A stretch of DNA of 64,000 bases from Minisyncoccota bacterium (GTDB lineage: Bacteria; Patescibacteriota; Minisyncoccia; Phycocordibacterales; UBA2100), in contig JAYWCB010000002.1 in assembly GCA_043780835.1 (NCBI GenBank), forward strand, positions 27,466 through 91,465, read 5' to 3'. This document shows positions 39,079 to 58,609 of the stretch, piece by piece. Under the pieces are notes generated by a model. It did not search any database. It saw nothing but the letters and a program-made list of their open reading frames with translations, and was not told the origin of the DNA. Both the position numbers and the translations under genes were made by a program. The first letter of the stretch is position 1; each line of letters opens with the position of its first letter.

Positions 39079-39087
39079 ACGCGATTA

Positions 39088-39804: not shown

Positions 39805-39808
39805 AGTG

Positions 39809-40592: not shown

Positions 40593-41027
40593 TCAGGCGT
40601 GCGTATGAATGGATTCGATGGTGGGATGAATGCCGTGTTTGTGGTGACGATGCAACATCATACTAATGAACAGTATGAGCAGTGCCGAAGTCACACCGAG
40701 TCCGATCGGTATGGTGAAGTCGTTGCCTCCAAACCCGAAAATGGCATTGATTGAGCACAGGAAATCGCAATCAAGCGGTTTTGATCCGTTCGATTTTGCT
40801 TCCGCGGGTCGCCACGTGATGTCGGCTGCAGTAACTCCCTGTTGGGAAGCAGCTTGTGCGAGCGACGCAACCATCGCGTCTACCTGTGCCGCAGGGATGG
40901 ATGACGAGCGTGGATCTTTTAAAATTTCGGCACGAATCGCTTGGGATAGTCCGGTAGATTGCGCACCTGCAGCAAACGGGAGCGCGAGTGCAAGCGTGAG
41001 AATAGTTGCAACGAATGACGCTTTCAT
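40593..41027 (-). CDS. Secreted protein with His-rich C-terminal TM segment (hypothetical)
   Basis: Signal peptide MKASFVATILTLALALPFAAGA. C-terminus ALLILFISMMLHRHHKHGIHP. Confidence 0.35.
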   Translation of the reverse strand: MKASFVATILTLALALPFAAGAQSTGLSQAIRAEILKDPRSSSIPAAQVDAMVASLAQAASQQGVTAADITWRPAEAKSNGSKPLDCDFLCSINAIFGFGGNDFTIPIGLGVTSALLILFISMMLHRHHKHGIHPTIESIHTHA

Positions 41028-41095
41028 ATGAATACAATCAGTATACAGGAGTGTTCGGCGGTCGATTGCATTGATGCGCTTATAGTGTGGATGAA

Positions 41096-41908
41096 TCATT
41101 TCTTACCGATTGCCACCTCAATTTTTGCAAGATTCGACGCGACCGCCGCCTTGAATGCGGCCATACCCGCTGGAGCGGCAGCATATCCGTTGCCCGAATA
41201 CGCGCGTACAAATTGATCTTCAGTAAGTACACTGACCGCTTTTTCGGCGCGACGTGCCCACGTTTCTGCCTCTGTGAATGATTGGGTTTCATACAGCGCG
41301 ACCGCATATTCATTCATGAGCCACGGATTTTCCGGAAATTGCTGCATACCATCTACGAGCATATGCAACGCGCGATCAACGTGACCGCCTTTCAACATGA
41401 CCCATGCATAGTCGTTCATCGCAGACCAATTGAGCGACCCGTGAGGATTTAATCTAAGAAACGTAAGGAAATCACGACCCGCAGCGTCGTATTGTCCCGA
41501 AAATCCGTACGCAAGCGCGCGGATATAAAACGGCTTGTCGAAAGCTTCGCCCTGCAACGCGATTTCTTCATCAGCATAGACCCGTGCCTTTACAAGCTCA
41601 TTACGTAAGAACGCGATGCGTGCCAATTGGTAGTGAGCGCGCGGATACACAGGATCAATGTGCACGGTTTTAGAAAAGAAATATTCAGCGCGCATAAGAT
41701 CCTGGTGATCCGTTGCATCCATGAACTTCATGCCGTAACGAAATCCCCGCTCCCCACTCGGAAATCGCGAGAACGCGATCTTATCGCAGGCATACTCCAT
41801 TTCCCACCGCATTGTGTGCATATGTCCGGATGTTATACCGAACGCTATTATGGCCAGCGAGAGGCCTACTACAGCAGCGAGTTTATACGCCCGTCGTTCA
41901 CGTATCAT
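41096..41908 (-). CDS. N-terminally anchored TPR-repeat protein (paralog of 52035-52817 and 52834-53637)
   Basis: N-terminal TM, TPR-like repeats, conserved ...PENPWLMNEYAVALYE... block shared with the two paralogs. Confidence 0.5.
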   Translation of the reverse strand: MIRERRAYKLAAVVGLSLAIIAFGITSGHMHTMRWEMEYACDKIAFSRFPSGERGFRYGMKFMDATDHQDLMRAEYFFSKTVHIDPVYPRAHYQLARIAFLRNELVKARVYADEEIALQGEAFDKPFYIRALAYGFSGQYDAAGRDFLTFLRLNPHGSLNWSAMNDYAWVMLKGGHVDRALHMLVDGMQQFPENPWLMNEYAVALYETQSFTEAETWARRAEKAVSVLTEDQFVRAYSGNGYAAAPAGMAAFKAAVASNLAKIEVAIGKK

Positions 41909-41911
41909 GTG

Positions 41912-42370
41912 TTACCGCGGTGACGAACCTTGTACGATGGGCAGGTTCTCGACAATCCATTCGTTGGTCCCGCCACCGATGCGTCTCAAATTCAGATACC
42001 CGTGATGCTCGAGATAACCGTAGCCAACACCGGATTCACGTCCGCCTGCACAAATCAGCACGATCGTCTTTCCTTTTTTTGGAAACTGGGAATACCCATC
42101 AAAAAAGCGCGGAAGCGGTACATTGACCGCGCCGAGTGCATGCCCTTTTTCGTATTCGCTTCCTGATCGCACGTCAACAAACATGTACGAATCGGGATGT
42201 GCGAGAAAAGCAGCCTGAAATTCCGTGGGCGAAATATCTTTCGTAGCCGGTTCAATGATATGCAGATTCTGAAGCGGCGTAAGATAGATAATGAGCACAC
42301 TAGCAACAACGCCAATGATAAGAAAAAAGATTGCGATTAACGAAATACGCATATAAGAAAAGTATAGCAA
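41912..42370 (-). CDS. Membrane-anchored rhodanese-domain protein (sulfurtransferase-like); paralog of 53669-54196
   Basis: N-terminal TM. Rhodanese core FVDVRSGSEYEKGHALGAVNVP...IVLICAGGRES (active-site Cys loop CAGGRES). Confidence 0.7.
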   Translation of the reverse strand: MLYFSYMRISLIAIFFLIIGVVASVLIIYLTPLQNLHIIEPATKDISPTEFQAAFLAHPDSYMFVDVRSGSEYEKGHALGAVNVPLPRFFDGYSQFPKKGKTIVLICAGGRESGVGYGYLEHHGYLNLRRIGGGTNEWIVENLPIVQGSSPR

Positions 42371-43045
42371 CTATTTTAAAGTGTCGACGCGATGTATGAG
42401 CGACTGAATATAGTCAATCGCTACGCGCGTGCCGTTCCCCCTATTCCCCTGCACAAGAATGGACTTCCCCGCTCCTTCAATTACAACACCCGGCGTTGCA
42501 TCAACCCCCGCACCTTTGCCCTCAGCAATGTCGTCGTCCACAATCTTTTTCGCAACACCACTTGCAACACAGGTTCGCACGGGGGCGACTGCAATTCCGA
42601 CGGCTTCTGCTGCCGCATATCCCGCATTATCCGACTGCGACGTCGCAACAGGTTGATCAACTTTGAATAAGCGCGATACGTATTTCCAATATGTTTCTTC
42701 CCCATCAATACGCGCGATGCACTCTGCGATCTGCGCTTTCAAATATGCACCAGTATGTTCTTCGCGTGGAAAATTTTTATATATCACAACGATGCCGCCC
42801 CCATATGCAGCGTGAAGTTTTCCATAAGATCTTTCGTGAAAGTCCTTGCAGTGTGGACACTCGTAATCTGTAAATATCGTCAGTGTAATCGGCGCAGCGA
42901 GATTTCCTATCACATGCCGGGCTGCGGTGTGGACTGCCGATTGTGACTCTTGTCTACCGGTGTACACGGTCGTGAACACCAATACCGCAGTGATGACGAC
43001 TCCGATGACCGCTATCAGTGCAGTAATAAAGCGCACCGGTTTCAT
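42371..43045 (-). CDS. Membrane-anchored DsbA-like thiol:disulfide oxidoreductase; paralog of 54201-54899
   Basis: N-terminal TM. Thioredoxin CPHC active site in FTDYECPHCKDFHE. Confidence 0.7.
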   Translation of the reverse strand: MKPVRFITALIAVIGVVITAVLVFTTVYTGRQESQSAVHTAARHVIGNLAAPITLTIFTDYECPHCKDFHERSYGKLHAAYGGGIVVIYKNFPREEHTGAYLKAQIAECIARIDGEETYWKYVSRLFKVDQPVATSQSDNAGYAAAEAVGIAVAPVRTCVASGVAKKIVDDDIAEGKGAGVDATPGVVIEGAGKSILVQGNRGNGTRVAIDYIQSLIHRVDTLK

Positions 43046-43047
43046 GC

Positions 43048-44211
43048 TTATCGATTTGATCCAGTGAAGTCACGAGTCTGCCACCCAAGACGAATAAGCA
43101 ATTTCTTGAAGTTGGGATCTTTTGCCGCGAGCGCTACGAGATAGCGTTTTTTTCCTCGCGCGTCGTCTTTTTCACGCGCAAAATAACGGAACGCACTTGA
43201 ATGTTCATACGCATTGGATGCATACATCGGTGAAAGAATCTTCCTGATGTCAGCAGCGCGCTTTTCTCCGTACACTTGATTCAAAAAGCGTGCATATTGG
43301 AAGCGCGCCAGTCCGTCGTCAGGAGTACCCTTTACAACGGCGTACGAGGCAAGCACTTGAGAGAAGATATGTTCCGTTTTTTCTGGCGTACTTTCACCGA
43401 TCACCGCGAGACTACGCTCTATAGATGCGCGAAGTAACAGAGTCGGCGGTACGAGGTTTGCCGTATTGGGGTCGTCTTTCGAACGCGCGAGATTATGTTC
43501 CGCCGCATCAATACGACGGCGCAATTCTGTCAGGTATTCTTTTTGTTCGGCATCAGAAAGCTTCTGGTCTTTGCCGGTAAATGAGCGTTCAAGTTTGGTT
43601 GCATACCAATCGGCAACATACAGTTCTGAAAATGCGAGCGGATAGAAGTCTGAGGCGTATGCAAAGAGTTCGCGCTGTGTAAGCGACAGATCTTTCGGAT
43701 GGTAGAATGTTGCGAACGGAGGCTGGGAAAATATCTGATCCTCGAACACATTTCCAAATTCCTGCCAAAATCGGCCGATAGTCTGTATCGCGTATGCGCG
43801 CACAATGGGAGTGGCTTGACCGTCGCGTGCAATATTCATGTACAAATCAATTGCACCACCCACATTGCCGCGATCATACTCCGCGAGTCCGATTTTATAT
43901 CGTATTTGATCTTTTTGTTCTTTATCAGGCGCAGTGCCGATTGCCGATTGATAGAGCGCGATTGCGCTCGTTGCATTACCGAGCCGGCGCTGGTTTTCTG
44001 CATCTGCAAATGAGCCATTCCCTTGCATGAGATGCATGTAGGGGTCATTGGTACTGGTGTATTTGCTTTTGCTCGGAAAAATCCCACTCAAAGGAATCCC
44101 CATAAGAGTGAGCACAAGAAAAACCACAACGATAATCGCAAGGATTGCTCCGAGCGCATTTCGAATCGGGTGTTTTCGTACGGTGGTTTCGGGTTTCATG
44201 TATTGAATCAT
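43048..44211 (-). CDS. N-terminally anchored helical-repeat (TPR-like) protein; paralog of 54907-56031
   Basis: N-terminal TM. Shared block IRYKIGLAEYDRGNVGGAIDLYMNIA vs IRFKIALATEESGDFANAIAQYKSIA. Confidence 0.4.
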   Translation of the reverse strand: MIQYMKPETTVRKHPIRNALGAILAIIVVVFLVLTLMGIPLSGIFPSKSKYTSTNDPYMHLMQGNGSFADAENQRRLGNATSAIALYQSAIGTAPDKEQKDQIRYKIGLAEYDRGNVGGAIDLYMNIARDGQATPIVRAYAIQTIGRFWQEFGNVFEDQIFSQPPFATFYHPKDLSLTQRELFAYASDFYPLAFSELYVADWYATKLERSFTGKDQKLSDAEQKEYLTELRRRIDAAEHNLARSKDDPNTANLVPPTLLLRASIERSLAVIGESTPEKTEHIFSQVLASYAVVKGTPDDGLARFQYARFLNQVYGEKRAADIRKILSPMYASNAYEHSSAFRYFAREKDDARGKKRYLVALAAKDPNFKKLLIRLGWQTRDFTGSNR

Positions 44212-44492
44212 CCATCATCTGCGTCACCTGATCCACCTGCATCGCCTCCACAATCATCATCGTCGCCACCGGTTGACACATCGACCACTATCGCCTCTGC
44301 ATGAGCAACGGGCACATCGAGGTGAACTCTATCTGCTATCAAAGCGTGCTCGGGATCGTGAATGGATGTGTGAGGACTGATTGCAAAAAAAAGACCGAGA
44401 AAACTGAAAAAGATTCCGCTCGCCCACGAGACTTGTTTGATCAGACGTTTTGCGCGGCGCTCGATGAATACCATGCATTCATCATATCTCAA
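44208..44492 (-). CDS. Small membrane-anchored peptide with Gly/Asp/Cys-rich C-terminal tail; paralog of 56035-56310
   Basis: Basic N-terminus, TM helix ASGIFFSFLGLFFAISP, conserved VAHAEAIVVDVS, tail TGGDDDDCGGDAGGSGDADDG. First gene of the minus-strand operon. Confidence 0.4.
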   Translation of the reverse strand: MRYDECMVFIERRAKRLIKQVSWASGIFFSFLGLFFAISPHTSIHDPEHALIADRVHLDVPVAHAEAIVVDVSTGGDDDDCGGDAGGSGDADDG

Positions 44493-45930
44493 TTACATGA
44501 AGGAATGGGCACCTGCTGGGGAAAAGGTTTTTCAAGCGAAGACTATCGGCCTGATATACACTACTGCCATGTTTCGTTTCAGGCGCATCGGCGAGTACTA
44601 CAAACGCCTCTTTTCAGTTTCTGAAATTGAAACGACACCGGTGCTGCAATGGATGTGCGGTGTCACACTCCTCTTCTTTTACGCCACCTTCACGCGCTGG
44701 ATTTACAGCGATGAAGCCACGATTGATGCGGTGAATCGCGGCGCCGCATACTGCTGGCCGTATTTTCAAAGCTGTCACGCTCTCTTTTTCCTGCATAGCT
44801 TACCTTACAGCTACGTGCAGATGACCTTTTACATGGGACTGCTTGTCAGTATGTGCGCAACCGTGTACGCAATGTGGAAAAAACGGTGGGCGCTGGTACA
44901 CGCACTCCTCTCGATACTTTTTGCATGGAAGCTGTGGGTGATGTTTGTGCTTTCATACGAGATTTCGGGCAATTACGACTACTACCACGTGTTCCTCACC
45001 TTTTTACTCCTTGTGGTGCCGCATAAAGAGTATTTCCTCAAACTATGCTTCGTGGTTCTCTATTTCCTTTCCGTTACAACAAAATTTCATCAAACGTGGA
45101 TCCTGGGCAGCTACTTTACGTCGCTCCATACCGGTACGCCTCTTTTTCCTGATGCGGTTGCGCCCCTGCTCACCAATACCGTGATCTTTATGCAGGTTAT
45201 CGGCAGTTGGTTTTTAATCAGCAGGAACTGGCCGCTACAACGCCTCTCGCTTACATACTTCACGATATTCCATTTGTATTCGGGGATTCTCGTGCGCTAC
45301 CTCTATCCCTCGATCGCACTTACCGCACTCCTCGTATTGTTTGGGCCCCTCTATCGGTACACGCCACCGCCGCGATCCTTACTCAAAGCGCTGCCGGGAG
45401 CACTGCTCATTCTTACGCAGTTCGCATTTCAGATGCCTGCTCATTTCATAGTCGGTGATCAGAAACTGACGCTCGAGGGTAATAAGTACGGCATGTACAT
45501 GTTCGAAGCGAATCATCAATGTATCGGGCATATGAAATATATTGAGCGACGCGACGGTCCGGTTGCGGAAACGTTTTCTCAGATTCCACCCGGTACACAA
45601 TGTCCGGGAGGGTCGTGTGTGACGAAGCGCCACACATACGCAGACGGAGCGTACACTGTGCGCGAAGAAACATGGGAGTCAGCCGTCGCTTGGAACCGCT
45701 GCGATCCCTATTTGTTCTGGCAGCGGACTCGTCGATTTTGTGAGTTGCCGCGGGCGGTACGGGTCGATATGCAGTTCGACCACTCAATAGACGGCGGGCC
45801 ATTTTATCGCATTATCGATGAGCGAGATATTTGCGGCCTCACCTATCATCCGTTCGTGCACAATAATTGGATTCTGCTTCCACCCGACGCAAAGATCGTC
45901 GGCTATCCCGTCCAAAATATCTTGCGATAA
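44437..45930 (+). CDS. Large polytopic membrane protein with Cys-containing C-terminal soluble domain (possibly HTTM/vitamin-K-carboxylase-like). Start uncertain (maybe 44572).
   Basis: About 8-10 TM helices, then conserved C-domain (ANHQC...QFDHSIDGGPFYRI.DE..IC.L.Y). Paralogous to the next gene. Confidence 0.4.
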   Translation: MIRRFARRSMNTMHSSYLNYMKEWAPAGEKVFQAKTIGLIYTTAMFRFRRIGEYYKRLFSVSEIETTPVLQWMCGVTLLFFYATFTRWIYSDEATIDAVNRGAAYCWPYFQSCHALFFLHSLPYSYVQMTFYMGLLVSMCATVYAMWKKRWALVHALLSILFAWKLWVMFVLSYEISGNYDYYHVFLTFLLLVVPHKEYFLKLCFVVLYFLSVTTKFHQTWILGSYFTSLHTGTPLFPDAVAPLLTNTVIFMQVIGSWFLISRNWPLQRLSLTYFTIFHLYSGILVRYLYPSIALTALLVLFGPLYRYTPPPRSLLKALPGALLILTQFAFQMPAHFIVGDQKLTLEGNKYGMYMFEANHQCIGHMKYIERRDGPVAETFSQIPPGTQCPGGSCVTKRHTYADGAYTVREETWESAVAWNRCDPYLFWQRTRRFCELPRAVRVDMQFDHSIDGGPFYRIIDERDICGLTYHPFVHNNWILLPPDAKIVGYPVQNILR

Positions 45931-45933
45931 GCT

Positions 45934-47760
45934 ATGCCTACAACGTCACCAACATTTATTGTATTAACAGAGCTTGTAGGACACGCTCCCGCGTCTCTCA
46001 ATCAAATACAGGCTGTGATTGCACCGCATGTGCATTCCCTGACGGTAACGTGGCTCGCGCTGTGGTGTACAGCGCTTGTCTTTGCAATCCGAGCACTCAT
46101 CAACAAAATCCGATTTCCGGAACTCGATGTGCCGAGTACGACTCCATCGATTTCATTCGAGCTACCACCGATACTCACTCGCATACGCGTCCTGTACAGA
46201 CGATTATTCTCTGTTTCTGAAATTGAGCATTCGCTCGTACTCAGATGGCTCTATGGGGCGATGCTGTTCGGATTCTTTACCTCGTTTGGAAATTGGATAC
46301 TTGATTCGTCGATCACCGCAGAAACTGCTTCGAAAGGTGCGCAGATCTGCTGGACGTATTTTCCGCAGTGTGGTCAGTGGTATGTGCTGCATACCCTGCC
46401 CTACGGATACTCATATACGAGTGTATACATGGTGCTGTACGCCGTCATGCTTGCCTGCGTTTTTGCGATGTGGAAGAAATCGTGGACGTCTGCGCATGCA
46501 TTGATGATGATCCTCTTTGTGTGGAAAGTGCTTGTGATGTTCGTGCTCACCGCTTCTATTCAGGGTGGCCCGAACTACCACCATGTACTGATCACCTTCG
46601 TGCTCTTATTTCTCCCGTATAAGGAGTTTTTCGCGCGCGTGTCGTTTGTCGTCATGTATTTCTTGTCGGCAGTCATCAAGCTTGATGAATCGTGGATACT
46701 GGGCGAATATTTTACATCGCTTCAGTCCGGACTGCCCGTGTTCGGAAACACACTTGCGCCCATCTTTACCAACGCGGTCATCGGCATGCAGATCATTTTG
46801 GGATGGTTTTTGCTCAGTGGAAGAAGTCGCATCCAAAAAACGGCGCTCGTGTGCTTTAGCGTGTTCCATATCTATGCAGGTATTTTTGTCGGGTACACGT
46901 ATCCCATACTCGCGCTCTCCATGCTGTGGATTCTGTTTGGACCACTGTTTCACGTAAGTACAATCCCGCTTAACCGTCGTTCGGTGGCAGGATGGATAAC
47001 ACTCATCGCGCTTTTTGCATTTCATGCACCGGCACATCTCATAGAAGGCGATCAGCGAATGACACAAGAAGGAAGTCGCTTCGGATTGAATTTATTTGAC
47101 GCGAATCATCAGTGTGCGAGTACCCTCTCGATCTACGCTACATCGAGTACACCTGTGCGCGATACGCAATGGTCCGCAAAACCGCGGCAAACCTGTGGTG
47201 ATTATATTTGTCTCACCACCACGATTACGCACGAAGCCGACGACATGGTTGTAACGCGCGAACGGTGGGAATCTCCCGTATCGTGGCAACGGTGTCGCGT
47301 ATCTACGTTTTGGTCAATTGCAAAACAACAGCATTGCAGCGATCCGGGTGTGCTTCGCGTGCAGATGCAATTTGATCACTCAATTGACGGTGGACCGTTT
47401 TACCGCATCGTAGACGAGCAGAATATTTGCACACTTTCATATCAGACATTTAGCCACAACGGCTGGATAAAAATGCCACCAGAAGCACCCATCGTCGGAT
47501 ATCCGGTCAAAAATGTTTTCCGCTACCAGCGTCAAAGCGGCAGCGCGTTCAATGAACGTGCCCCTCAAATTTCTACGTCTTCAGATATCATCGCGCTCAA
47601 CGAACTCGTGGGTAACGATCGGATACAGCGCACCAGTCTCCAGAGCGCGGTTGCGCCATACTTTCCGGTGCTCGTGTTCTTCTGGCGCGTTATCTGGACA
47701 ATGATGTGTGCACTCGTGATCAGTCGCGTGTGGTTTGCATATCAGCGAACCAAAAAATAA
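45934..47760 (+). CDS. Paralog of 44437-45930: large polytopic membrane protein (HTTM-like?) with extra C-terminal TM
   Basis: Colinear similarity, e.g. RLFSVSEIE, HVLITFVLLFLPYKEFF, QFDHSIDGGPFYRIVDE. Confidence 0.4.
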   Translation: MPTTSPTFIVLTELVGHAPASLNQIQAVIAPHVHSLTVTWLALWCTALVFAIRALINKIRFPELDVPSTTPSISFELPPILTRIRVLYRRLFSVSEIEHSLVLRWLYGAMLFGFFTSFGNWILDSSITAETASKGAQICWTYFPQCGQWYVLHTLPYGYSYTSVYMVLYAVMLACVFAMWKKSWTSAHALMMILFVWKVLVMFVLTASIQGGPNYHHVLITFVLLFLPYKEFFARVSFVVMYFLSAVIKLDESWILGEYFTSLQSGLPVFGNTLAPIFTNAVIGMQIILGWFLLSGRSRIQKTALVCFSVFHIYAGIFVGYTYPILALSMLWILFGPLFHVSTIPLNRRSVAGWITLIALFAFHAPAHLIEGDQRMTQEGSRFGLNLFDANHQCASTLSIYATSSTPVRDTQWSAKPRQTCGDYICLTTTITHEADDMVVTRERWESPVSWQRCRVSTFWSIAKQQHCSDPGVLRVQMQFDHSIDGGPFYRIVDEQNICTLSYQTFSHNGWIKMPPEAPIVGYPVKNVFRYQRQSGSAFNERAPQISTSSDIIALNELVGNDRIQRTSLQSAVAPYFPVLVFFWRVIWTMMCALVISRVWFAYQRTKK

Positions 47761-47782
47761 AAACCCGGGCGAACCCGGGTTT
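47761..47782. terminator. Hairpin terminator (aaacccgggc-gaa-cccgggttt), strong on the minus strand (followed by TTATTTTTT)
   Basis: Perfect stem between the convergent 45934-47760(+) and 47801-48028(-) genes. Confidence 0.45.
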
Positions 47783-47800
47783 CTAAAACCGTCATTTCAA

Positions 47801-48028
47801 TTACGCGCAGCTTCGTTCACGGCCGCCGCCGTGACCCTTCATACTGCATGAGCCGACGACCTTCTGTACGCCGGACGGGCACGAGCCGCTTTTCACGTAG
47901 ATAACTTGCTTGCAATTGAGCTCACCCGCCGCTGGCTCTGCGCCGAGGGGATTGCTGCGGCTTTGCGCCTGAGCGGCACCGGCGATCAGCGCAACGAACG
48001 TACACGCGAGTATGGTCGAACGAATCAT
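47801..48028 (-). CDS. Small secreted Cys-rich peptide (75 aa precursor)
   Basis: Signal peptide MIRSTILACTFVALIAGAAQA. Mature region with 5 Cys. Strong SD AGGGAGG 6 nt upstream. Paralog-like to 60303-60551 (shared AQSR after signal). Confidence 0.45.
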   Translation of the reverse strand: MIRSTILACTFVALIAGAAQAQSRSNPLGAEPAAGELNCKQVIYVKSGSCPSGVQKVVGSCSMKGHGGGRERSCA

Positions 48029-48145
48029 TGATTCCTCCCTTGATGAGGCTGCCGGTCGTGTGACAGCTGGCGATTTTATACCACATGCTGGCTAAATTGC
48101 AATCTGCTCAATGACCCGATCTCAGCACAGCGGTATACTCTCACC

Positions 48146-49891
48146 ATGTCGCTACTCGCTGCTCGTGATCGTATTAAACGTGCAATCGAAACACGCGCAT
48201 ATGTAGATGTCAGACAAGGTACGATCGTTCAAAGAAACAAACAGGTGAAGACTGAAGGGTGGCTTATCGATATTCGTTCAATACTACTCGATTCTGATGT
48301 ACTCTCTGACATAGCGGAAGTATTTTGGGACTCGTTTCGAGAAATGAACGATGTGCAGATCGGCGGCATTGAAACTGCCGCTATCCCGCTCATTACCTCG
48401 CTTGTTACACATGCAAAGACGTATGCACAGCGCGAACACACATCGGGATTTTATATACGCAAATCACGAAAGAAAGACGGGCTTCTTAAAATGATCGAAG
48501 GAACACTCGTACCGGATGTGCCAGTGATACTCGTAGATGATCTCATCAATAGCGGACAAAGCCTGATTCGTCAGGTTGAAGTTTTACGCGATCACGGCAC
48601 AGCGGTGCACGCGGTGTGGACCCTTGTGCGATTCCGGGATCCTGAATTCTATACGTATTTTTCAGAGCGGAATATTCCAATATATTCGCTATTCACGCTC
48701 AACGATTTTCACGATTCACTTGGCCTGAGCAATCGGACAAGTGGTGCGCTCGACGAGCGATACGCGCCGTTTCGCGTGCTATGGCGGTACGGCTCGCCAC
48801 GCCCGAGTTACCAACACGTGGTTCCAAAATCTGATCCCGTAATCGACGAGCAGCTACTGTTTATTGGATCTGACACCGGTCACATGCGTGCCTTGCGCCA
48901 AAAAGACGGTGGTATCGCGTGGGAGTTTAAAACCGGCACACACGCACACGGCAAAGGTATTTTTTCTACACCAGCGCTCCACAATGGAGTTCTCTATTTC
49001 GGATCGTATGACGGCAATGTATACGCCCTCGATGCAATGACGGGTCGCACGAAATGGACCTATTGGGATGCGGACTGGGTCGGTTCATCGCCCACTCTTG
49101 CACCCGATCTCGGGATACTCTTTATTGGATTGGAATTCGGATTATGGAGAAAACGCGGCGGCATTGCCGCACTCGATATGCGTACCGGAAAGACGGCGTG
49201 GGAACATATAATGCCGTGCTATACGCACTCATCTCCACTGTATATTCCAAAACACGCGCAGGTCGTTATTGGAAGCAATGACGGCGCAGTGTATTTGTAC
49301 AACGCATCCACCGGCACGCTTCTGTGGAAATATGAAAAAGCCGCCCTCACCGCACGCGAGCTCGAAACGGGATTCGGTGAGCGCGACATCAAAGAATCAT
49401 TTGCCTACGACGCAGCGCGCGACATCATTCTGTTTGGCGCCATGGACGGCACGCTGACCGCGCTCGAGCGCTCAACAGGGAGAGCGCTGCGGTCATTCCA
49501 GGCAGAATTCGGCATCTATTCAACCCCCATTATTCACGGTGATACCGTTATTTTTAGCTCTCTCGATAAACATCTGTATTGCCTCAATATTGATACTTTA
49601 GAATTGAAATGGAGGTGGTACGCAGGTGCTCGTCTATTTGCCACGCCAGTTATCATGGGCGGCATGATATATATCGGTGCCAATACCGGGAGATTAACCG
49701 TACTCGACGCTGAATCAGGCCTCGCTCGCACTTATTTCACCGTAAGCGAACGAATCACAAATAGGATTGCATTCAACCCGATCACGCGACATCTTTTTCT
49801 CACAACGTTTGCCAACGAGGTGTACTGCCTTGAGCAACCACCATCAATGGCAGATATTACGAACCTGCCGGCTCGTACCACTGTGGAATAA
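48146..49891 (+). CDS. Orotate-PRTase-like (type I PRTase) domain fused to a PQQ-repeat beta-propeller; paralog of 58610-60253
   Basis: PRPP-binding loop PVILVDDLINSGQSL, PyrE-like IRKSRKKDGLLKMIEG. Then repeated DGNVYALDAMTGRTKW / DGAVYLYNASTGTLLW / DGTLTALERSTGRAL propeller blades. Confidence 0.55.
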   Translation: MSLLAARDRIKRAIETRAYVDVRQGTIVQRNKQVKTEGWLIDIRSILLDSDVLSDIAEVFWDSFREMNDVQIGGIETAAIPLITSLVTHAKTYAQREHTSGFYIRKSRKKDGLLKMIEGTLVPDVPVILVDDLINSGQSLIRQVEVLRDHGTAVHAVWTLVRFRDPEFYTYFSERNIPIYSLFTLNDFHDSLGLSNRTSGALDERYAPFRVLWRYGSPRPSYQHVVPKSDPVIDEQLLFIGSDTGHMRALRQKDGGIAWEFKTGTHAHGKGIFSTPALHNGVLYFGSYDGNVYALDAMTGRTKWTYWDADWVGSSPTLAPDLGILFIGLEFGLWRKRGGIAALDMRTGKTAWEHIMPCYTHSSPLYIPKHAQVVIGSNDGAVYLYNASTGTLLWKYEKAALTARELETGFGERDIKESFAYDAARDIILFGAMDGTLTALERSTGRALRSFQAEFGIYSTPIIHGDTVIFSSLDKHLYCLNIDTLELKWRWYAGARLFATPVIMGGMIYIGANTGRLTVLDAESGLARTYFTVSERITNRIAFNPITRHLFLTTFANEVYCLEQPPSMADITNLPARTTVE

Positions 49892-50726
49892 CATTCACGG
49901 TTCTAGTTTCGGTAATTGTGGTAGGTGTAGCACCGGCTTTTGAATGGCAGAAGAGTGTGTAATCGGTGCGACTCGTGATCGGACTGGTGACTTTCCCTGA
50001 AGGACCCGAGCCTGAAGAAATTCCTGACGTATCCCACGAACCGGTACGACTCCCTGCGGTGCCGTCGCCGTTTGTGCCATGCACCGTGCAGTCACGTACA
50101 TTTGTTACGTTCCAGTAGACGCGTGATGGATCTCCTGAACGTACGAGTGACGGCCGGACTTCGAGATGCCCTGAGGCACTGAATCCTTGCGTCGTGGTAA
50201 ATCCTATAAATTGTGGTGATTGTGGTGGTAGACACGCATTGCCTTGTGCGGTGTACCCGACCGGACATGCTGGACATGCCCCCAATCTGTCGGGCAGGGA
50301 TCCATCCCAACAGGTTGATGCGTACGTGCTTTCGTATGAGCTTTCTGCGGGACCGGAGGCTTGAGAAGGTCCGGAGGCTTGAGAAGGTCCGGAGGCTTGA
50401 GGTGGAGGATATGCGGCTTCGTAGTAACTCGTAACAGGACCGGAGTCTTGTGGTGGCGGATATGAGGCTTGGTAGTAGCTTTGGTAGTACGCCTGATAGT
50501 ACGCCTGATAGTACGCTTCGTAGTAGTCTACGACAGATCCGCCAGATGCGGGCACAACTTGTAAACCCGATGGCGTGGTATCAGTGAAGCGAGCCTCGGC
50601 TGAAACTGCAACATGATGATTCGACACCCCATTCAAGAGAAAATATGCAATTGCAAAAATTGCCGCCGCAAATAATCCATACCGCAGAAAACGGAATACG
50701 GGGCGCCGATGCGTGTGATGAACCAT
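49857..50726 (-). CDS. Anchored Tyr/Gln/Ser-rich repetitive surface protein
   Basis: N-terminal TM. YYQAYYQAYYQSYYQASY and (GPSQAS)n repeats encoded by DNA tandem repeats. Confidence 0.4.
   Translation of the reverse strand: MVHHTHRRPVFRFLRYGLFAAAIFAIAYFLLNGVSNHHVAVSAEARFTDTTPSGLQVVPASGGSVVDYYEAYYQAYYQAYYQSYYQASYPPPQDSGPVTSYYEAAYPPPQASGPSQASGPSQASGPAESSYESTYASTCWDGSLPDRLGACPACPVGYTAQGNACLPPQSPQFIGFTTTQGFSASGHLEVRPSLVRSGDPSRVYWNVTNVRDCTVHGTNGDGTAGSRTGSWDTSGISSGSGPSGKVTSPITSRTDYTLFCHSKAGATPTTITETRTVNVIPQWYEPAGS
50353..50404. repeat. 18-bp tandem repeat (ccggaggcttgagaaggt) x about 2.8 inside CDS
   Basis: Direct perfect repeats encoding GPSQAS units. Confidence 0.55.
50467..50530. repeat. 12-bp tandem repeat (gcctgatagtac and variants) x about 5 inside CDS
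   Basis: Direct repeats encoding AYYQ units. Confidence 0.5.
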
Positions 50727-50747
50727 ACGTACTACAATTGTACTTCA

Positions 50748-52004
50748 TCAATGCGTCTCTAGAGGAGCGGCTGTGTATAGCGAAGCCCGTCTACCAAGAC
50801 AGACATCGGAATATTTTTTATCAAGCGAGCCGCATCGTTGCGCACGCACAGATGCATCCGGGATGTATATCGAAATACTAGTGGCTAAATCGTTAAAACA
50901 AAAATCCTTTGAACCGTCATCAGCAAGCGTACTGCAAAAACGGAGCGATAATTTCGGATCGGCATCCCCTCCCCAAAAAAAATAGGAGAGTGCATACGAT
51001 TCGCACGCATACGCATCTTCACGTGCTTGAACCAGGTGACACAGACTTTCAACGCGTCGCAACTGCTCATCGGAAAATACACCCTGATCCAGTTTTCGGA
51101 TGTCTTTTTCCCCGACGACACTTACGAAATCTTTTCCAAAACCACCGATACATGAACTGCGGTCCGATCCAAACGGAAGTGCAGTACACGCGCGCATTGC
51201 ATCAGCAAACTTAGACGTGTCTTTCGTACGGAAATCAGATCCTACTGCCGCCAAAAGATGCGGAGTGATGTACACATAACATCGTGCCTTTGCACTCTGC
51301 GGAATAAGCCGCGTCGAGCATGGCGCGAGTGGATCTGAGGCGGTGAAATACGTGGCGTTTGCCTTTTTCCATAGCTCTCGGTCATGGCCGCCCCCGCCCA
51401 CTAATTCCATTATGGATCCTCCGATACACTCCTGCGATTGCATATATTTCCATTCAGCCGTACCGGTTTTCGAACAAAAGCTGATTGTCTTTTCCAAGGA
51501 ATACCCATAATAGGCAAGTACACCATGACCAAGCCCGTGGTAACACATGCCATATGCGCTTTTCCCGCCCGGTGCTTTTTTACATGCAGTGTCGATCATG
51601 GCGCGCACGTCGTCTCCGTCACCGAATTCCTGCAGCGTATCGACGACAATCGAATGTGAGCAACCATTTCTGAATTCCTGCGTGCAGATTGACATGCCGT
51701 CGATTCCCTTCTGTGCATAGAGTTTATGTCCGATTGCATGTGCAACGAGATGAATATCTGTATTCGGCGGAATTACCGCATACCGAAGCACACCGAATGC
51801 GTATTCGGCACCTTTTTTATCGGCAATGTCTTCGAATCGTTTTACGAGCACATCAAATGTCGGATTATCCGCCGCAATAGTCTTTACTTCCGCATATGTT
51901 GCCTCACCGTCGGCCACGTGTACCTTTGACTCTTTTAGATATGCCCCAGCGGCACCCGCGAGCAGTACGAGCAATACAACTATCAGATGTTTCGTCGAAG
52001 TCAT
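50748..52004 (-). CDS. Large secreted Cys-rich hypothetical protein
   Basis: Signal/TM MTSTKHLIVVLLVLLAGAAGA. About 18 Cys. Confidence 0.4.
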   Translation of the reverse strand: MTSTKHLIVVLLVLLAGAAGAYLKESKVHVADGEATYAEVKTIAADNPTFDVLVKRFEDIADKKGAEYAFGVLRYAVIPPNTDIHLVAHAIGHKLYAQKGIDGMSICTQEFRNGCSHSIVVDTLQEFGDGDDVRAMIDTACKKAPGGKSAYGMCYHGLGHGVLAYYGYSLEKTISFCSKTGTAEWKYMQSQECIGGSIMELVGGGGHDRELWKKANATYFTASDPLAPCSTRLIPQSAKARCYVYITPHLLAAVGSDFRTKDTSKFADAMRACTALPFGSDRSSCIGGFGKDFVSVVGEKDIRKLDQGVFSDEQLRRVESLCHLVQAREDAYACESYALSYFFWGGDADPKLSLRFCSTLADDGSKDFCFNDLATSISIYIPDASVRAQRCGSLDKKYSDVCLGRRASLYTAAPLETH

Positions 52005-52034: not shown

Positions 52035-52817
52035 TTATTCACGAATCCCCTTTGCTGTGGCTGCTGATTCTATTTTCTGTAGATTTTGATGTGCTGCGTT
52101 TCGTAACGTTTCAAGGCCGGTTTCTGCCGCATCCGGAGCATTTCCGGGATATGCTGCGTGCCACTGTGCAGGTGTAATACCATCAACCGCCGCTGTTGCA
52201 CGCCGTGCCGCAACAAGCGCTTCGCGCAGTTTTCCTTGTTCAAAAAAGATCGTAGCGCGCACGCTCAGAAGCCATGGATTGTCTGGATACCGACTAAGTC
52301 CCGCGTCGACTACGATAAGCGCTTCGTCCAGCTTTCCTGTTTTGATCAAAACCCAGGCATAGTCTGTTCGGCCTTCCCAACCACCGGGATTCAGCTCCAC
52401 ATACGTTTTGTAATCTCGGGCGGCAGCATTGTAATCATTGAGATACCCCTCTATAAGACCGCGTAGATAGTACGCACTTGAACGAGATGTGTGGGTGTTA
52501 TTTTGGATTTCAATATTTACTTCTGCAAGTGCTTCGTGATACTCGCCGTTCAAAAAATGAATCCGCGCCAATTGATGGTGCACGAGCGGATATTGTGGAT
52601 CCAGGTGCGCCGCCCGTGAAAAGAAATATGCAGCTTCCGCTAAATCATATTCTGACTCATTCGGTCGGTCGATATGCTGCAGGCCGTATGTATAGGCGAG
52701 CTCTGCGCGCGGATGAAGTTTGAGATGCAGTCGTTCCCGTATGGCTCCGGGATCAATAAGAAATAGTCCGATAATAAATACAGCGGCTACAGTACATGAA
52801 ACGAGGGAGCGAGTCAT
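52035..52817 (-). CDS. N-terminally anchored TPR-repeat protein (paralog of 41096-41908)
   Basis: TM plus TPR; shared YPDNPWLLSVRATIFFEQGK block. Start trimmed to MTRSLV. Confidence 0.5.
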   Translation of the reverse strand: MTRSLVSCTVAAVFIIGLFLIDPGAIRERLHLKLHPRAELAYTYGLQHIDRPNESEYDLAEAAYFFSRAAHLDPQYPLVHHQLARIHFLNGEYHEALAEVNIEIQNNTHTSRSSAYYLRGLIEGYLNDYNAAARDYKTYVELNPGGWEGRTDYAWVLIKTGKLDEALIVVDAGLSRYPDNPWLLSVRATIFFEQGKLREALVAARRATAAVDGITPAQWHAAYPGNAPDAAETGLETLRNAAHQNLQKIESAATAKGIRE

Positions 52818-52833
52818 GAGCGCATTGTACTGT

Positions 52834-53637: not shown

Positions 53638-53668
53638 GACGCAAGTATACTGCGGTTCCCTCGCGGTG

Positions 53669-54196
53669 TTACTGATGCTCATCGACACCGGAAAATCCAT
53701 GTGGAATGTTATTTCCTTCTATCGGCAGTCCTTCGAGTGACCAATTTTCGAGCCCTCCTTTGATGCGAATAAGATTGAGAAAGCCCCAATTTTCCAAATA
53801 TCCATACGCGATTCCGGCAAGCCTGCCGCTCGTGCAAATCAGCGCAATCTTTTTACCGTGCTTCGGCAAGGTAAAATGTTCATCAATGAGATTTTCAATC
53901 GGTATATTTATCGCGCCAACTGCGTGGGCGGAATTGTAGACAGTCGTCGATCGCACATCGATCAACATATACTGATCGCGGTGCTGAGAATAATCAGCAT
54001 AAAACTCCTTCGGATCGATATCGTTTGATATCGGGGCGATCAGTGTGAGGTGTTTGAGTGGCGTCAGATAGATGAGCAGTATCGTCACAACAATGACGCC
54101 GATGAGTGATGCAATAAACATGAAGCGATCATCGAAAAGACTTACAGAGCCGTCTGCCTCTGCTTTTGCTCGATTCGAAAAATATCGTTTTAACAT
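53669..54196 (-). CDS. Membrane-anchored rhodanese-domain protein (paralog of 41912-42370)
   Basis: LIDVRSTTVYNSAHAVGAINIP...IALICTSGRLAG (Cys loop CTSGRLA). Confidence 0.7.
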   Translation of the reverse strand: MLKRYFSNRAKAEADGSVSLFDDRFMFIASLIGVIVVTILLIYLTPLKHLTLIAPISNDIDPKEFYADYSQHRDQYMLIDVRSTTVYNSAHAVGAINIPIENLIDEHFTLPKHGKKIALICTSGRLAGIAYGYLENWGFLNLIRIKGGLENWSLEGLPIEGNNIPHGFSGVDEHQ

Positions 54197-54200
54197 AAAA

Positions 54201-54899: not shown

Positions 54900-54906
54900 G
54901 GAACCG

Positions 54907-56031: not shown

Positions 56032-56034
56032 ACA

Positions 56035-58596: not shown

Positions 58597-58609
58597 GCAA
58601 TGCTCGTGT

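What the first reader, a model, noticed from the sequence alone, without database searches (positions are those of the whole stretch)
41096..49891. Second, partially paralogous cassette lacking YcaO/SagB but carrying two HTTM-like polytopic membrane proteins
Gene-for-gene paralogy with 52035-60551: TPR (41096-41908), rhodanese (41912-42370), DsbA CPHC (42371-43045), TPR-like (43048-44211), small anchored peptide with acidic Gly/Asp/Cys tail (44208-44492), then on the opposite strand an OPRT-like-propeller fusion (48146-49891) and a small secreted Cys-rich peptide (47801-48028). Where locus 2 has YcaO-SagB, this locus has two tandem paralogous membrane proteins of about 500-600 aa (44437-45930, 45934-47760) with a conserved Cys-containing C-terminal domain. 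A duplicated module with a swapped 'maturase' slot suggests a family of related extracytoplasmic peptide/protein maturation systems. The YcaO-SagB pair may act in trans on both anchored peptides.
Basis: partly seen in the sequence, partly recalled or inferred. Interest (0 to 1): 0.75.

Follow-up and report, generated by a model that had tools for sequence, protein, structure and literature searches.

The report
Carboxylase-like membrane enzymes beside anchored acidic peptides
Two related gene cassettes in an uncultured Paceibacteria-type (CPR) bacterium encode membrane-anchored, acid- and cysteine-rich small peptides; one cassette also carries two very divergent relatives of the human vitamin-K-dependent carboxylase, which points to an undescribed peptide-modification pathway at the cell surface.

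Summary
Six of seven gene pairs between 41096-49891 and 52035-60551 are clear paralogs, at 27-49% identity with E from 1e-25 to 1e-144. The anchored peptide pair is also related. The small secreted Cys-rich pair is not.

The "swapped maturase slot" reading is only partly right. In relatives, YcaO, SagB, the membrane enzyme and the PRT-propeller sit in one operon. Cassettes without YcaO are also common. The constant elements are the carboxylase-like enzyme with a small TM partner, the PRT-propeller, TPR proteins and an N-terminally anchored precursor. That precursor has an AxA|D/E site and a variable Gly/Asp/Ser/Cys core.

The window's two membrane enzymes belong to the YcaO-linked clade, so the cassettes look complementary.

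Best guess: the enzyme modifies the exported acidic core, possibly by Asp/Glu carboxylation. This chemistry is inferred, not shown.

The whole island sits directly upstream of rplC; in relatives it lies between rpsJ and rplC.

The parts
41096..41908 (-). N-terminally anchored TPR protein (270 aa)
   Evidence: Pfam TPR_19 E 1e-11. 38% and 32% identical to the two locus-2 TPR proteins. Single TM at residues 10-28 with K/R on the N side.
41912..42370 (-). Anchored single-domain rhodanese (PspE-like)
   Evidence: PF00581 E 4e-13. Weak PspE/GlpE hits in NCBIfam. Its only Cys is in the loop CAGGRES. 49% identical to 53669-54196.
42371..43045 (-). Anchored DsbA-like thioredoxin-fold protein with CPHC
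   Evidence: PF13462 E 2e-22 and PF01323 E 7e-9. 27% identical to 54201-54899, which carries CPYC (E 1e-25).
43048..44211 (-). Anchored TPR-like protein (387 aa), immediately downstream of the precursor gene
   Evidence: Only sub-threshold TPR hits. 30% identical over its full length to 54907-56031 (E 8e-40). A protein of this size occupies the same position next to the precursor in relatives (L001, L004, L012, L032).
44208..44492 (-). Precursor-like peptide. Basic N-terminus, TM helix, linker, VAHA|E site, then the core AIVVDVSTGGDDDDCGGDAGGSGDADDG. Probable start at 44474.
   Evidence: Translation. Related to 56035-56310 (z 12.7). Belongs to a set of about 32 similar small ORFs in related loci sharing the [AVT]-x-A-[DE] motif. 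Called independently as an 88-aa gene.
44437..45930 (+). VKGC-like polytopic membrane enzyme, copy 1 (database start 44497, 477 aa)
45934..47760 (+). VKGC-like membrane enzyme, copy 2. Fused at both ends to the ~60-aa small-TM partner: about 45934-46110 and about 47580-47760.
   Evidence: 46% identical to copy 1 (E 3e-150). Both termini are similar to the stand-alone small TM genes of L001, L003 and L032 (z 8-19).
47758..47785 (.). Bidirectional terminator-like hairpin between the convergent genes 45934-47760 and 47801-48028
   Evidence: 12-bp stem with 6 G-C pairs, flanked by A and T runs.
47801..48028 (-). Small secreted protein with 5 Cys (DUF6719)
   Evidence: PF20477 E 2e-7. Signal-peptide-like N-terminus. 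Not similar to the locus-2 counterpart.
48146..49891 (+). Cytoplasmic OPRT-like phosphoribosyltransferase fused to an 8-bladed BamB-like beta-propeller (locus-1 subtype)
   Evidence: Pfam and NCBIfam pyrE domain E 1e-16. PRPP loop VDDLINSGxS and loop RKSRKKDG are conserved in 40 homologues. AF2 model pLDDT 89.4. Foldseek matches 8-blade designs and BamB, E 1e-27 to 1e-31. No TM.
40593..41099 (-). Conserved island neighbour (168 aa, two hydrophobic segments), between rplC and locus 1
   Evidence: Homologues at the same place in L001, L006, L007, L010, L015, L029, L032, L046, L060 and L073.
49857..52004 (-). Two conserved anchored/secreted island proteins between the cassettes. One is 289 aa with a Tyr-rich repeat (49857-50726). 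The other is 418 aa with 16 Cys (50748-52004).
   Evidence: No Pfam or NCBIfam hit. Homologues lie next to the cassette in L001 and L046, at about 250 and about 505 bits.
52035..56310 (-). Locus-2 left arm: TPR, TPR, rhodanese, DsbA-like (CPYC), TPR-like, and a precursor (56035-56310) with core VVDSGAGSAGGSDSGSGCDSGGSGGSCG
56400..60253 (+). Locus-2 right arm: YcaO (56400-57839), SagB-type dehydrogenase (57814-58596), PRT-propeller (probable start 58610). No membrane enzyme.
   Evidence: PF02624 E 5e-40. TIGR03604 E 1e-42 and TIGR03605 at 114.7 bits, above its cut-off. tblastn finds no further membrane-enzyme copy anywhere in the window.
60303..61216 (.). Locus-2 small secreted Cys-rich peptide (60303-60596, minus strand, ATG at 60551) and a 4-5 TM protein with a conserved intramembrane GFGCAACG motif (60671-61216, plus strand)
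   Evidence: The membrane protein recurs downstream of YcaO-type cassettes in L012, L019, L022 and L046.

Best explanation
The region 41096-49891 is one of two complementary copies of a conserved envelope cassette of Paceibacteria/Kaiserbacteria.

Each copy encodes a small precursor with a basic N-terminus, one TM helix, a linker, a signal-peptidase-type [A/V/T]-x-A|[D/E] site, and a hypervariable Gly/Asp/Ser/Cys-rich core. The core is predicted to face outward.

The two tandem membrane proteins are highly divergent members of the vitamin-K-dependent carboxylase (VKGC/HTTM) structural superfamily. They keep the catalytic Lys-x4-Trp pair and a lumenal-type C-terminal domain with four invariant Cys. 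Each works with a ~60-aa single-TM partner, which is fused in the window.

Proposed mechanism (inferred):
1. Where YcaO/SagB are present (locus 2), they install azol(in)es on Cys/Ser of the core in the cytoplasm.
2. The peptide is inserted or exported.
3. The VKGC-like enzyme binds the pre-core segment with its outer domain and modifies the acidic core at the outer membrane face. By analogy with GGCX (Glu) and MloH (aspartyl), the most likely reaction is carboxylation of Asp/Glu.
4. The anchored TPR and TPR-like proteins, the DsbA-like protein and the rhodanese act as outer-face helpers for holding the peptide and for thiol chemistry.
5. The product would be a strongly cation-binding peptide that is either surface-attached or released.

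Because locus 2 has no membrane enzyme, and the locus-1 enzymes belong to the YcaO-linked clade, the locus-1 enzymes probably serve both peptides.

What is shown: the paralogy, the fold, the conserved residues, the synteny and the precursor family.
What is inferred: topology, substrate identity, order of steps, chemistry, and the role of the cytoplasmic PRT-propeller, which is unknown.
For: - Paralogy statistics.
- Colinear sequence anchors come from an HMM local alignment, a local hhalign match in the lumenal region (E 3.8e-4) and a global hhalign. They are C86~C99, N159~N159, Y189F190-K196-W201~Y211F212-K218-W223 and F258H259~F286H287. All of these family residues except N159 are invariant in 46 family members; N159 is only a conserved consensus position.
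- K218 is the catalytic base and W223 stacks on it (PMC12589487; PMC12647623).
- Two distant family members give sub-threshold hits to PF22777, the VKGC lumenal domain.
- Precedent: a bacterial VKGC orthologue, MloH, carboxylates an aspartyl residue (PMC12647623; bioRxiv 10.64898/2026.08.19.745780).
- About 32 precursor-like ORFs share the motif and an acidic core. They lie 87-2500 bp from the membrane enzyme.
- In L032 the operon is membrane enzyme, small TM, precursor (67% Asp/Glu core), TPR-like, TPR, with no YcaO.
- YcaO-SagB-membrane enzyme-small TM-propeller form one operon in L001 and L012.
- Cassette subtypes and the membrane-enzyme tree.
- Topology predictions.
Against: - No sequence model of VKGC/HTTM detects the family. 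The residue-level alignments are individually weak: E 0.62 locally, and 12-36% probability in hhalign.
- GGCX His160, which binds the substrate Glu, is replaced by Tyr/Phe. Asp263 is replaced by Gln.
- CPR genomes are reported to lack quinone biosynthesis (PMC8407418). No quinone-related or VKOR gene was found in the window.
- The membrane enzyme also occurs alone in Alphaproteobacteria, Oligoflexia and Elusimicrobia, without the peptide, PRT-propeller or TPR genes. The peptide therefore need not be its only substrate.
- Cores next to YcaO are only slightly less acidic than the others: D+E 0.17 vs 0.23, p = 0.10.
- The distance from the TM helix to the AxA site (18-35 residues) is long for a signal peptidase I site.
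- The role of the PRT-propeller, the most constant partner, is unexplained.
Confidence: 0.45

Rival explanations
1. Thiol-redox role. The VKGC-like protein acts as a membrane oxidant, analogous to DsbB or VKOR. It re-oxidises the anchored DsbA-like protein, together with the rhodanese, so that disulfides or persulfides form in the Cys-containing peptides and in the Cys-rich secreted proteins. These include the 5-Cys peptide at 47801-48028 and the 16-Cys protein at 50748-52004. No carboxylation is involved.
For: - An invariant Cys pair (CWPYFQxC) lies in the first outer loop, and four more invariant Cys lie in the outer domain.
- DsbA-like and rhodanese genes are in both window cassettes and in about 9-12 related loci.
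- No DsbB or VKOR was found by Pfam in the cassettes.
- HTTM domains fused to DCC-type thiol-disulfide oxidoreductase domains exist in other bacteria (bioRxiv 10.64898/2026.08.19.745780).
Against: - Most loci with the membrane enzyme lack DsbA and rhodanese.
- In GGCX the equivalent Cys99 forms a structural disulfide with the lumenal domain, so the conserved Cys may be structural.
- The strictly conserved Lys/Trp pair points to the carboxylase-type base chemistry.
Confidence: 0.2
2. SdpB-like role. The membrane protein is needed for proteolytic processing or release of a Sec-exported precursor, as SdpB (with SdpA) is for SdpC to SDP in Bacillus subtilis. It adds no covalent group to the core.
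For: - In my recollection (not checked here), SdpB is an HTTM-family membrane protein. It is required for processing a signal-peptide-bearing precursor after secretion (PMC6818787).
- The precursors here carry a signal-anchor and a conserved cleavage-like motif.
Against: - No SdpA-like partner was identified.
- The enzymes here have the full VKGC architecture, including the lumenal domain, which SdpB (323 aa, from memory) lacks.
- The mechanism of SdpB is itself unknown, so this is an analogy rather than a mechanism.
Confidence: 0.15
3. The two cassettes are independent systems in which the membrane proteins replace YcaO-SagB as an alternative maturase, and YcaO-SagB may also act in trans on the locus-1 peptide.
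For: - Cassettes with the membrane enzyme and no YcaO within 3 kb are common: 0 of 13 for the locus-1 propeller subtype. L032 has no YcaO anywhere between rpsJ and rplC.
Against: - YcaO-SagB and the membrane enzyme are co-operonic in L001 and L012 and lie within 3 kb of each other in most YcaO-type cassettes.
- The window's membrane enzymes fall in the YcaO-linked clade.
- The locus-1 core is poor in Cys/Ser/Thr: 4 of 28 residues.
Confidence: 0.12
4. Housekeeping envelope enzyme. The VKGC-like protein acts on a lipid or a general envelope component, and its adjacency to the peptide genes is secondary.
For: - The family occurs alone, with only its small TM partner, in Micavibrio-like Alphaproteobacteria between rpoC and rpsL, and in Oligoflexia and Elusimicrobia.
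- In CPR the island sits inside the S10 ribosomal operon.
- The family has 688 clusters at 50% identity.
Against: - In Paceibacteria the precursor gene lies 87-900 bp from the enzyme gene in many loci, or in the same operon.
- The lumenal domain of GGCX is a peptide-binding domain.
Confidence: 0.08

Closest known systems
[quoted passage not shown]
   Same: - Same overall fold across the TM domain and the C-terminal outer domain.
- The catalytic Lys and stacking Trp have identical spacing.
- The Cys aligned with C99, the FH motif of TM7 and the FD..SIN..RI.D motif of the lumenal domain are conserved.
- The candidate substrate is acidic and follows a conserved recognition-like segment.
   Different: - 13-15% identity, with no Pfam hit.
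- About 450 aa instead of 758.
- His160 and Asp263 are not conserved.
- It has a separate or fused ~60-aa TM partner.
- The host lineage is reported to lack quinone synthesis.
- Candidate substrates are Gly/Asp/Ser/Cys low-complexity tails, not Gla domains.
MloH, the bacterial VKGC orthologue of malonomycin biosynthesis
   Same: It is a bacterial VKGC-type enzyme that acts on an aspartyl residue in a natural-product pathway (cited in PMC12647623 and in bioRxiv 10.64898/2026.08.19.745780). This is the closest chemical precedent for acting on Asp-rich cores.
   Different: MloH acts on a hybrid polyketide-nonribosomal peptide (PKS-NRPS) intermediate, not a ribosomal peptide.
sdpABC / yitPOM toxin maturation (SdpB = HTTM membrane protein)
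   Same: A membrane HTTM-type protein is encoded next to a secreted, signal-peptide-bearing precursor and is required for its maturation (PMC6818787).
   Different: - No SdpA homologue was seen here.
- The precursor type differs: a hydrophobic toxin there, an acidic Gly/Cys-rich tail here.
- The proteins here carry the full lumenal domain.
Linear azol(in)e-containing peptide (LAP/TOMM) clusters: YcaO plus SagB, e.g. microcin B17-type, and the 110 'LAP' clusters reported in CPR genomes (PMC7298704)
   Same: Locus 2 has a YcaO cyclodehydratase, a SagB-type dehydrogenase and an adjacent Gly/Ser/Cys-rich precursor.
   Different: - There is no E1-like or RRE partner.
- The precursor has a TM signal-anchor.
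- The cluster is embedded with the VKGC-like enzyme, PRT-propeller, TPR, DsbA and rhodanese genes.
- Locus 1, the finding itself, has no YcaO or SagB at all.
DsbA-DsbB/VKOR oxidative folding, with PspE-type periplasmic rhodanese
   Same: The cassettes encode an anchored DsbA-like CxxC protein and a PspE-like rhodanese, both predicted to face outward.
   Different: No DsbB or VKOR was detected. The only candidate partners are the VKGC-like enzyme itself and the CAAC membrane protein at 60671-61216.

Membership tests
VKGC/HTTM superfamily (GGCX-like) | Fold: polytopic TM domain followed by a lumenal/outer beta-rich domain | tested here: met
VKGC/HTTM superfamily (GGCX-like) | Detection by the curated sequence models (Pfam PF05090 VKG_Carbox / HTTM, PF22777 lumenal domain) | tested here: not met
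   No hit for either window protein or any of 46 family members, even at E <= 10. Only sub-threshold PF22777 hits in 2 of 10 distant members, at E 0.0077 and 0.15. A PDB sequence search with the profile found nothing.
VKGC/HTTM superfamily (GGCX-like) | Catalytic base Lys218 with stacking Trp223 | tested here: met
   The invariant K196 and W201 (numbering of the 477-aa protein) align to K218 and W223 with the same spacing. This holds in an HMM local alignment and a global profile alignment. Both alignments are weak on their own. 3D superposition could not be inspected.
VKGC/HTTM superfamily (GGCX-like) | Glu-binding residues Asn159/His160/Tyr395, and Asp263 next to the base | tested here: inconclusive
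   The global alignment pairs a conserved Asn with N159. It puts Tyr/Phe at H160 and Gln at D263. The linker region around Y395 aligns ambiguously.
VKGC/HTTM superfamily (GGCX-like) | Use of vitamin K hydroquinone, O2 and CO2/bicarbonate; epoxidase activity | not testable with these tools
   This needs biochemistry. As context, CPR genomes are reported to lack quinone biosynthesis genes (PMC8407418).
VKGC/HTTM superfamily (GGCX-like) | Substrate with a recognition propeptide followed by an acidic region | tested here: inconclusive
   The adjacent precursors have a conserved pre-core segment and Asp/Glu-containing cores, at 7-67% D+E. That they are the substrates is inferred from adjacency only.
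TOMM / LAP (YcaO-SagB azole RiPP cluster) | YcaO cyclodehydratase and SagB-type FMN dehydrogenase in the cluster | tested here: not met
   Locus 1 (41096-49891) has neither. Locus 2 has both: PF02624 E 5e-40; TIGR03604 E 1e-42 but below its cut-off; TIGR03605 above its cut-off.
TOMM / LAP (YcaO-SagB azole RiPP cluster) | E1-like/RRE ('C protein') partner for leader recognition | tested here: not met
   No such domain was found by Pfam or NCBIfam in either cassette. A cryptic recognition element in the roughly 100-aa N-terminal extension of YcaO was not examined.
TOMM / LAP (YcaO-SagB azole RiPP cluster) | Adjacent precursor with a Cys/Ser/Thr-rich core | tested here: met
   This is met for locus 2: the core of 56035-56310 is 34% S/T/C. 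The locus-1 core is 14% S/T/C and 34% D/E.
SdpAB-type maturation | SdpA-like partner next to the HTTM protein | tested here: not met
   No Pfam or NCBIfam hit to SdpA-like families among the cassette proteins.
DsbA-DsbB/VKOR disulfide pathway | Membrane quinone reductase partner (DsbB or VKOR) | tested here: not met
   None was detected among the ORFs of at least 130 aa from 40.5 to 64 kb that were scanned. The CAAC membrane protein at 60671-61216 has no family hit and only a self-match in the protein database.

The most novel reading that the evidence does not exclude
These cassettes could encode the first ribosomal-peptide carboxylation system in bacteria. A vitamin-K-carboxylase-type enzyme, from a family of about 700 sequence clusters that current domain models do not detect, would convert Asp/Glu in exported Gly/Asp/Cys-rich peptides into malonate-type residues (beta-carboxy-Asp or Gla). 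In some cassettes this would add to YcaO/SagB azoles. The result would be surface or secreted cation-binding peptides in CPR bacteria. The DsbA-like protein, and perhaps the CAAC membrane protein, could supply a vitamin-K-cycle-like redox loop that runs on host-derived quinone.
Probability: 0.2. Interest if true: 0.9.

Novelty: new variant of a known kind. Interest (0 to 1): 0.72.

Why it matters
- Vitamin-K-type carboxylases are known biochemically from animals and from one bacterial antibiotic pathway. Here a large, previously unrecognised branch of that superfamily has 688 clusters at 50% identity, mostly in CPR bacteria and some predatory or parasitic Proteobacteria.
- This branch is genetically tied to ribosomally encoded acidic peptides and, in many genomes, to YcaO/SagB.
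- It gives a concrete, testable substrate-enzyme pair for asking what HTTM/VKGC-like proteins do in bacteria.
- It revises what the 'LAP clusters' reported in CPR genomes really contain.
- It points to a conserved surface-peptide pathway that sits inside the S10 ribosomal operon of organisms whose cell-surface biology and host attachment are largely unknown.

Tried and rejected
1. Pfam and NCBIfam scans of both membrane proteins and of 46 family members gave no hit. The HTTM assignment could not be made by sequence models.
2. A profile search of PDB sequences gave nothing.
3. The AlphaFold-DB fold library was not available.
4. I tested whether cores next to YcaO are Ser/Cys-rich and cores in YcaO-less cassettes are acidic. 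Only a non-significant trend appeared (p = 0.10 and 0.20), so I do not use it as evidence.
5. Paralogy of the two small secreted Cys-rich peptides is not supported (z = 1.3).
6. I considered the CAAC membrane protein at 60671-61216 as a VKOR/DsbB-like partner. It has no family hit, and the homologue search returned only itself. No alignment was therefore admissible for structure prediction, and the idea remains open.
7. I asked whether the PRT-propeller might be a PQQ/quinone-binding enzyme. The fold search puts it with BamB-type and designed 8-blade scaffolds ahead of PQQ dehydrogenases, so there is no support.
8. Attempts to see the contig beyond position 64000, to locate rpsJ, failed.
9. 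No transporter appears among the significant structural hits.
10. Literature searches for HTTM with YcaO, and for Patescibacteria with YcaO, found no description of this system.

Full report
**1. Observation**

Pfam confirms the domain calls for locus 1:
- a TPR protein (41096-41908);
- a rhodanese (41912-42370), whose single Cys lies in the loop CAGGRES;
- a DsbA-like thioredoxin-fold protein with CPHC (42371-43045);
- a weakly TPR-like 387-aa protein (43048-44211);
- a PRT plus beta-propeller fusion (48146-49891);
- a small secreted DUF6719 protein (47801-48028).

The two large membrane proteins (44437-45930 and 45934-47760) and the 94-aa peptide have no Pfam hit. Locus 2 (52035-60596) carries two TPR proteins, a rhodanese, a DsbA-like protein (CPYC), a TPR-like protein, a peptide, YcaO, a SagB-type dehydrogenase and a PRT-propeller.

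All-against-all blastp gives these identities:
- 38% for TPR (E 7e-45);
- 49% for rhodanese (E 6e-46);
- 27% for DsbA-like (E 1e-25);
- 30% for TPR-like (E 8e-40);
- 40% for PRT-propeller (E 4e-144);
- 46% between the two membrane proteins (E 3e-150).

Unrelated pairs in the same set score E > 0.1. The two peptides are related (z = 12.7 against shuffles). The two small secreted Cys-rich peptides are not (z = 1.3). No further copies occur elsewhere in the window.

**2. Anatomy details**

- The independent database gene calls start the first membrane protein at 44497 (477 aa) and the peptide at 44474 (88 aa).
- The 608-aa protein is a fusion. In relatives a 60-67-aa single-TM protein follows the membrane gene as a separate ORF (L001 11392-11595, L003 11417-11599, L032 6580-6789).
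- In the window this small protein is fused in frame to both the N- and the C-terminus of the second membrane protein (z = 8-19).
- A 12-bp-stem hairpin at 47758-47785 separates the convergent genes. Divergent promoter-like sites lie at 48073-48139, before the PRT-propeller.
- TPR, rhodanese, DsbA-like, TPR-like and peptide each have one N-terminal TM helix with K/R on the N side. This predicts outward-facing domains.
- YcaO, SagB and the PRT-propellers have no TM segment.

**3. What the membrane proteins are**

A homologue search found 173 proteins, all unnamed and without Pfam domains, from Paceibacterota/Kaiserbacteria-type MAGs. An exhaustive HMM search found 688 clusters at 50% identity with E <= 1e-3, of which 220 have E <= 1e-30.

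An AlphaFold2 model built on 46 sequences is confident: pLDDT 89.8, pTM 0.89.
- Foldseek against the PDB returns 14 significant hits. All are human vitamin-K-dependent gamma-carboxylase (best E 6e-8, probability 1.0, about 470-510 aligned columns), and the next hit has E > 1.

Sequence-level support is weak but colinear.
- An HMM local alignment pairs 'FVxxYFLSxTxKFxxxWxLG' with GGCX 202-227.
- hhalign with a broader profile matches the lumenal motif 'FDHSINGGPFYRIVD...PFxHNxWI' to GGCX 462-504 (E 3.8e-4).
- A global profile alignment runs through C86~C99, N159~N159, K196~K218, W201~W223 and F258H259~F286H287.
- All of these family residues except N159 are invariant in the 46-sequence alignment; N159 is only a conserved consensus position.
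- Two distant members give sub-threshold hits to PF22777, the VKGC lumenal domain.

K218 is the catalytic base, W223 stacks on it, and C99-C450 ties the TM and lumenal domains together (PMC12589487; PMC12647623). Two positions differ: His160 is Tyr/Phe and Asp263 is Gln in the family.

The family nevertheless lies outside what the curated sequence models recognise. The refutation criterion, a transporter identity, is not met.

**4. Synteny survey**

Seventy-nine loci from species-representative genomes were fetched and scanned with the window's proteins. Within 10 kb, the membrane enzyme co-occurs with:
- the PRT-propeller in about 45 loci;
- TPR proteins in about 30;
- strong YcaO plus SagB hits in 17, of which 14 are distinct;
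- rhodanese plus DsbA-like in about 9.

L012 shows a complete cassette: TPR, rhodanese, DsbA, TPR-like and peptide on one strand, and YcaO, SagB, membrane enzyme and PRT-propeller on the other. L001 shows the same right arm with called genes. The membrane enzyme is therefore normally combined with YcaO-SagB, not exchanged for it.

The PRT-propellers fall into two subfamilies.
- Locus-1 type: 0 of 13 have YcaO within 3 kb, and 10 of 13 have the membrane enzyme.
- Locus-2 type: 12 of 19 have YcaO, and 14 of 19 have the membrane enzyme.

L032 is a YcaO-less island. Its operon is membrane enzyme, small TM, precursor, TPR-like, TPR.

A rough neighbour-joining tree places both window enzymes with the YcaO-linked enzymes, not with those linked to the locus-1-type propeller. 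Bit scores agree: 428-461 against 271-405. Since locus 2 has no enzyme of its own, the two cassettes look complementary. This tree is approximate and should be repeated with a proper method.

**5. The precursor family**

About 32 small ORFs in these loci share one design:
- a basic N-terminus;
- one TM helix;
- an 18-35-residue linker;
- a conserved [A/V/T]-x-A-[D/E] motif, most often (V/I)AHAD(A/V)P, which obeys the -3/-1 rule of signal peptidase I;
- a hypervariable low-complexity core of Gly, Asp/Glu, Ser and Cys, for example GDCGG, SGSDSG and GEGS repeats, or a 67% Asp/Glu tail in L032.

They occur with and without YcaO, and often lie 87-900 bp from the membrane enzyme gene.

In the window, the YcaO-adjacent core is 34% S/T/C and 14% D/E. 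The core next to the membrane enzymes is 14% S/T/C and 34% D/E. Across all loci this contrast is only a trend (p = 0.10 and 0.20).

**6. The PRT-propeller**

Homologues are numerous in CPR and are annotated only generically. The PRT domain keeps the OPRT-type loop RKSRKKDG and the PRPP loop VDDLINSGxS in 40 sequences. NCBIfam pyrE domain hit: E 1e-16, below its cut-off. The model (pLDDT 89.4) shows an 8-bladed propeller most like BamB and designed 8-blade proteins. It is the most constant partner of the membrane enzyme, and its role is unknown.

**7. Mechanism proposed**

Shown: the paralogy, the fold and conserved residues, the operon structures, the precursor family and the predicted single-TM anchors.

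Inferred:
1. The precursors are inserted N-in/C-out.
2. Where present, YcaO/SagB make azol(in)es before export.
3. The VKGC-like enzyme, with its small TM partner, binds the pre-core segment and modifies the acidic core at the outer face. Carboxylation of Asp/Glu is most likely, by analogy with GGCX and with MloH. MloH carboxylates an aspartyl residue (PMC12647623; bioRxiv 10.64898/2026.08.19.745780).
4. TPR, TPR-like, DsbA-like and rhodanese proteins assist outside the membrane.

Confidence: I put about 0.45 on the package as a whole, about 0.6 on 'the enzyme acts on the adjacent anchored peptide and the cassettes are complementary', and about 0.2-0.25 on carboxylation specifically.

Main difficulties:
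- CPR genomes are reported to lack quinone synthesis (PMC8407418).
- His160 and Asp263 are not conserved.
- The enzyme occurs alone in other phyla.
- The PRT-propeller has no assigned role.

Rivals:
- a DsbB/VKOR-like thiol-oxidase role;
- an SdpB-like processing role (PMC6818787);
- a housekeeping envelope role.

**8. Comparison with what is known, and novelty**

YcaO plus nitroreductase 'LAP' clusters were reported in CPR genomes: 110 clusters in 93 genomes (PMC7298704). That report described YcaO, a nitroreductase and a peptidase, and none of the other components described here. Full-text searches found nothing that links HTTM/VKGC-like proteins with YcaO or that describes this system in Patescibacteria.

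I classify it as a new variant of known kinds: a divergent branch of the VKGC superfamily recruited into a RiPP-like, partly TOMM-type cassette. Interest is 0.72. The fold assignment and the enzyme-peptide pairing are solid and unexpected, and they make the function of bacterial VKGC-like proteins testable. The chemistry remains open.

Noticed in passing
window 38731-40417 and onward to 64000; L029, L032, L039: The island lies inside the S10 ribosomal operon. In the window, rplW, rplD and rplC (all minus strand) end at 40417. The island then runs for at least 23.5 kb to the window end without rpsJ. In L029, L032 and L039 the same island (11-14 kb) sits exactly between rpsJ and rplC. This suggests constitutive, housekeeping-like expression rather than a sporadic biosynthetic cluster.
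   Followed up: partly
L052 9758-11260; also L045, L053, L056: In Micavibrio-like Alphaproteobacteria the same membrane enzyme, with the small TM partner fused at its N-terminus, stands alone between rpoC and rpsL on the opposite strand. So the gene lies in the ribosomal/RNAP gene neighbourhood in two unrelated phyla. I have no explanation.
   Followed up: partly
window 60671-61216 (+): A 181-aa protein with 4-5 TM helices and a conserved intramembrane GFGCAACG (CxxC) motif. It recurs downstream of YcaO-type cassettes in L012, L019, L022 and L046. It has no Pfam or NCBIfam hit, and the protein database returned only itself. It is a candidate thiol-redox or quinone-linked partner.
   Followed up: partly
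window 49857-50726 (-): An anchored 289-aa protein with a Tyr-rich repeat (YYEAYYQAYYQAYYQSYYQASY) and Pro/Ser/Gly-rich repeats. Some precursors in relatives carry a similar Tyr-rich stretch right after the AxA|D motif, for example VPYSQASYYGQGSY in L015 and VPYAEAAYYAEASY in L016. It may be another substrate class.
   Followed up: no
window 50748-52004 (-): A 418-aa secreted or anchored protein with 16 Cys and no family hit. It is strongly conserved (about 505 bits) next to the cassette in L001 and L046.
   Followed up: no
window 61909-62994 (+): A 361-aa protein with a PP-loop-like SGGIDS motif (ATP pyrophosphatase type) but no Pfam or NCBIfam hit. It lies just downstream of locus 2 and could be a further modification or sulfur-transfer enzyme.
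   Followed up: no
L004 2178-5217 and 7942-9882: The closest relative of locus 1 (L004, Paceibacterota MAG) carries three additional large ORFs inside the cassette, of 393, 637 and 646 aa. They were not examined and appear to have no counterpart in the window.
   Followed up: no
window 17790-20600 (-) and 15624-16670 (+): A 936-aa protein with a TraG/TraD-type coupling-protein C-terminal domain, and a Na+/Ca2+ exchanger family protein. Both lie upstream, beyond the ribosomal cluster. The Ca2+ exchanger is of passing interest if the peptides bind Ca2+.
   Followed up: no
L068 16480-16956 (-): An unusually long precursor-like ORF with a Cys-dense core of about 100 residues (CGSSCGSSCDSSCDSSCSSC...) after the same TAHADVP motif. 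It shows how far the core can vary.
   Followed up: no
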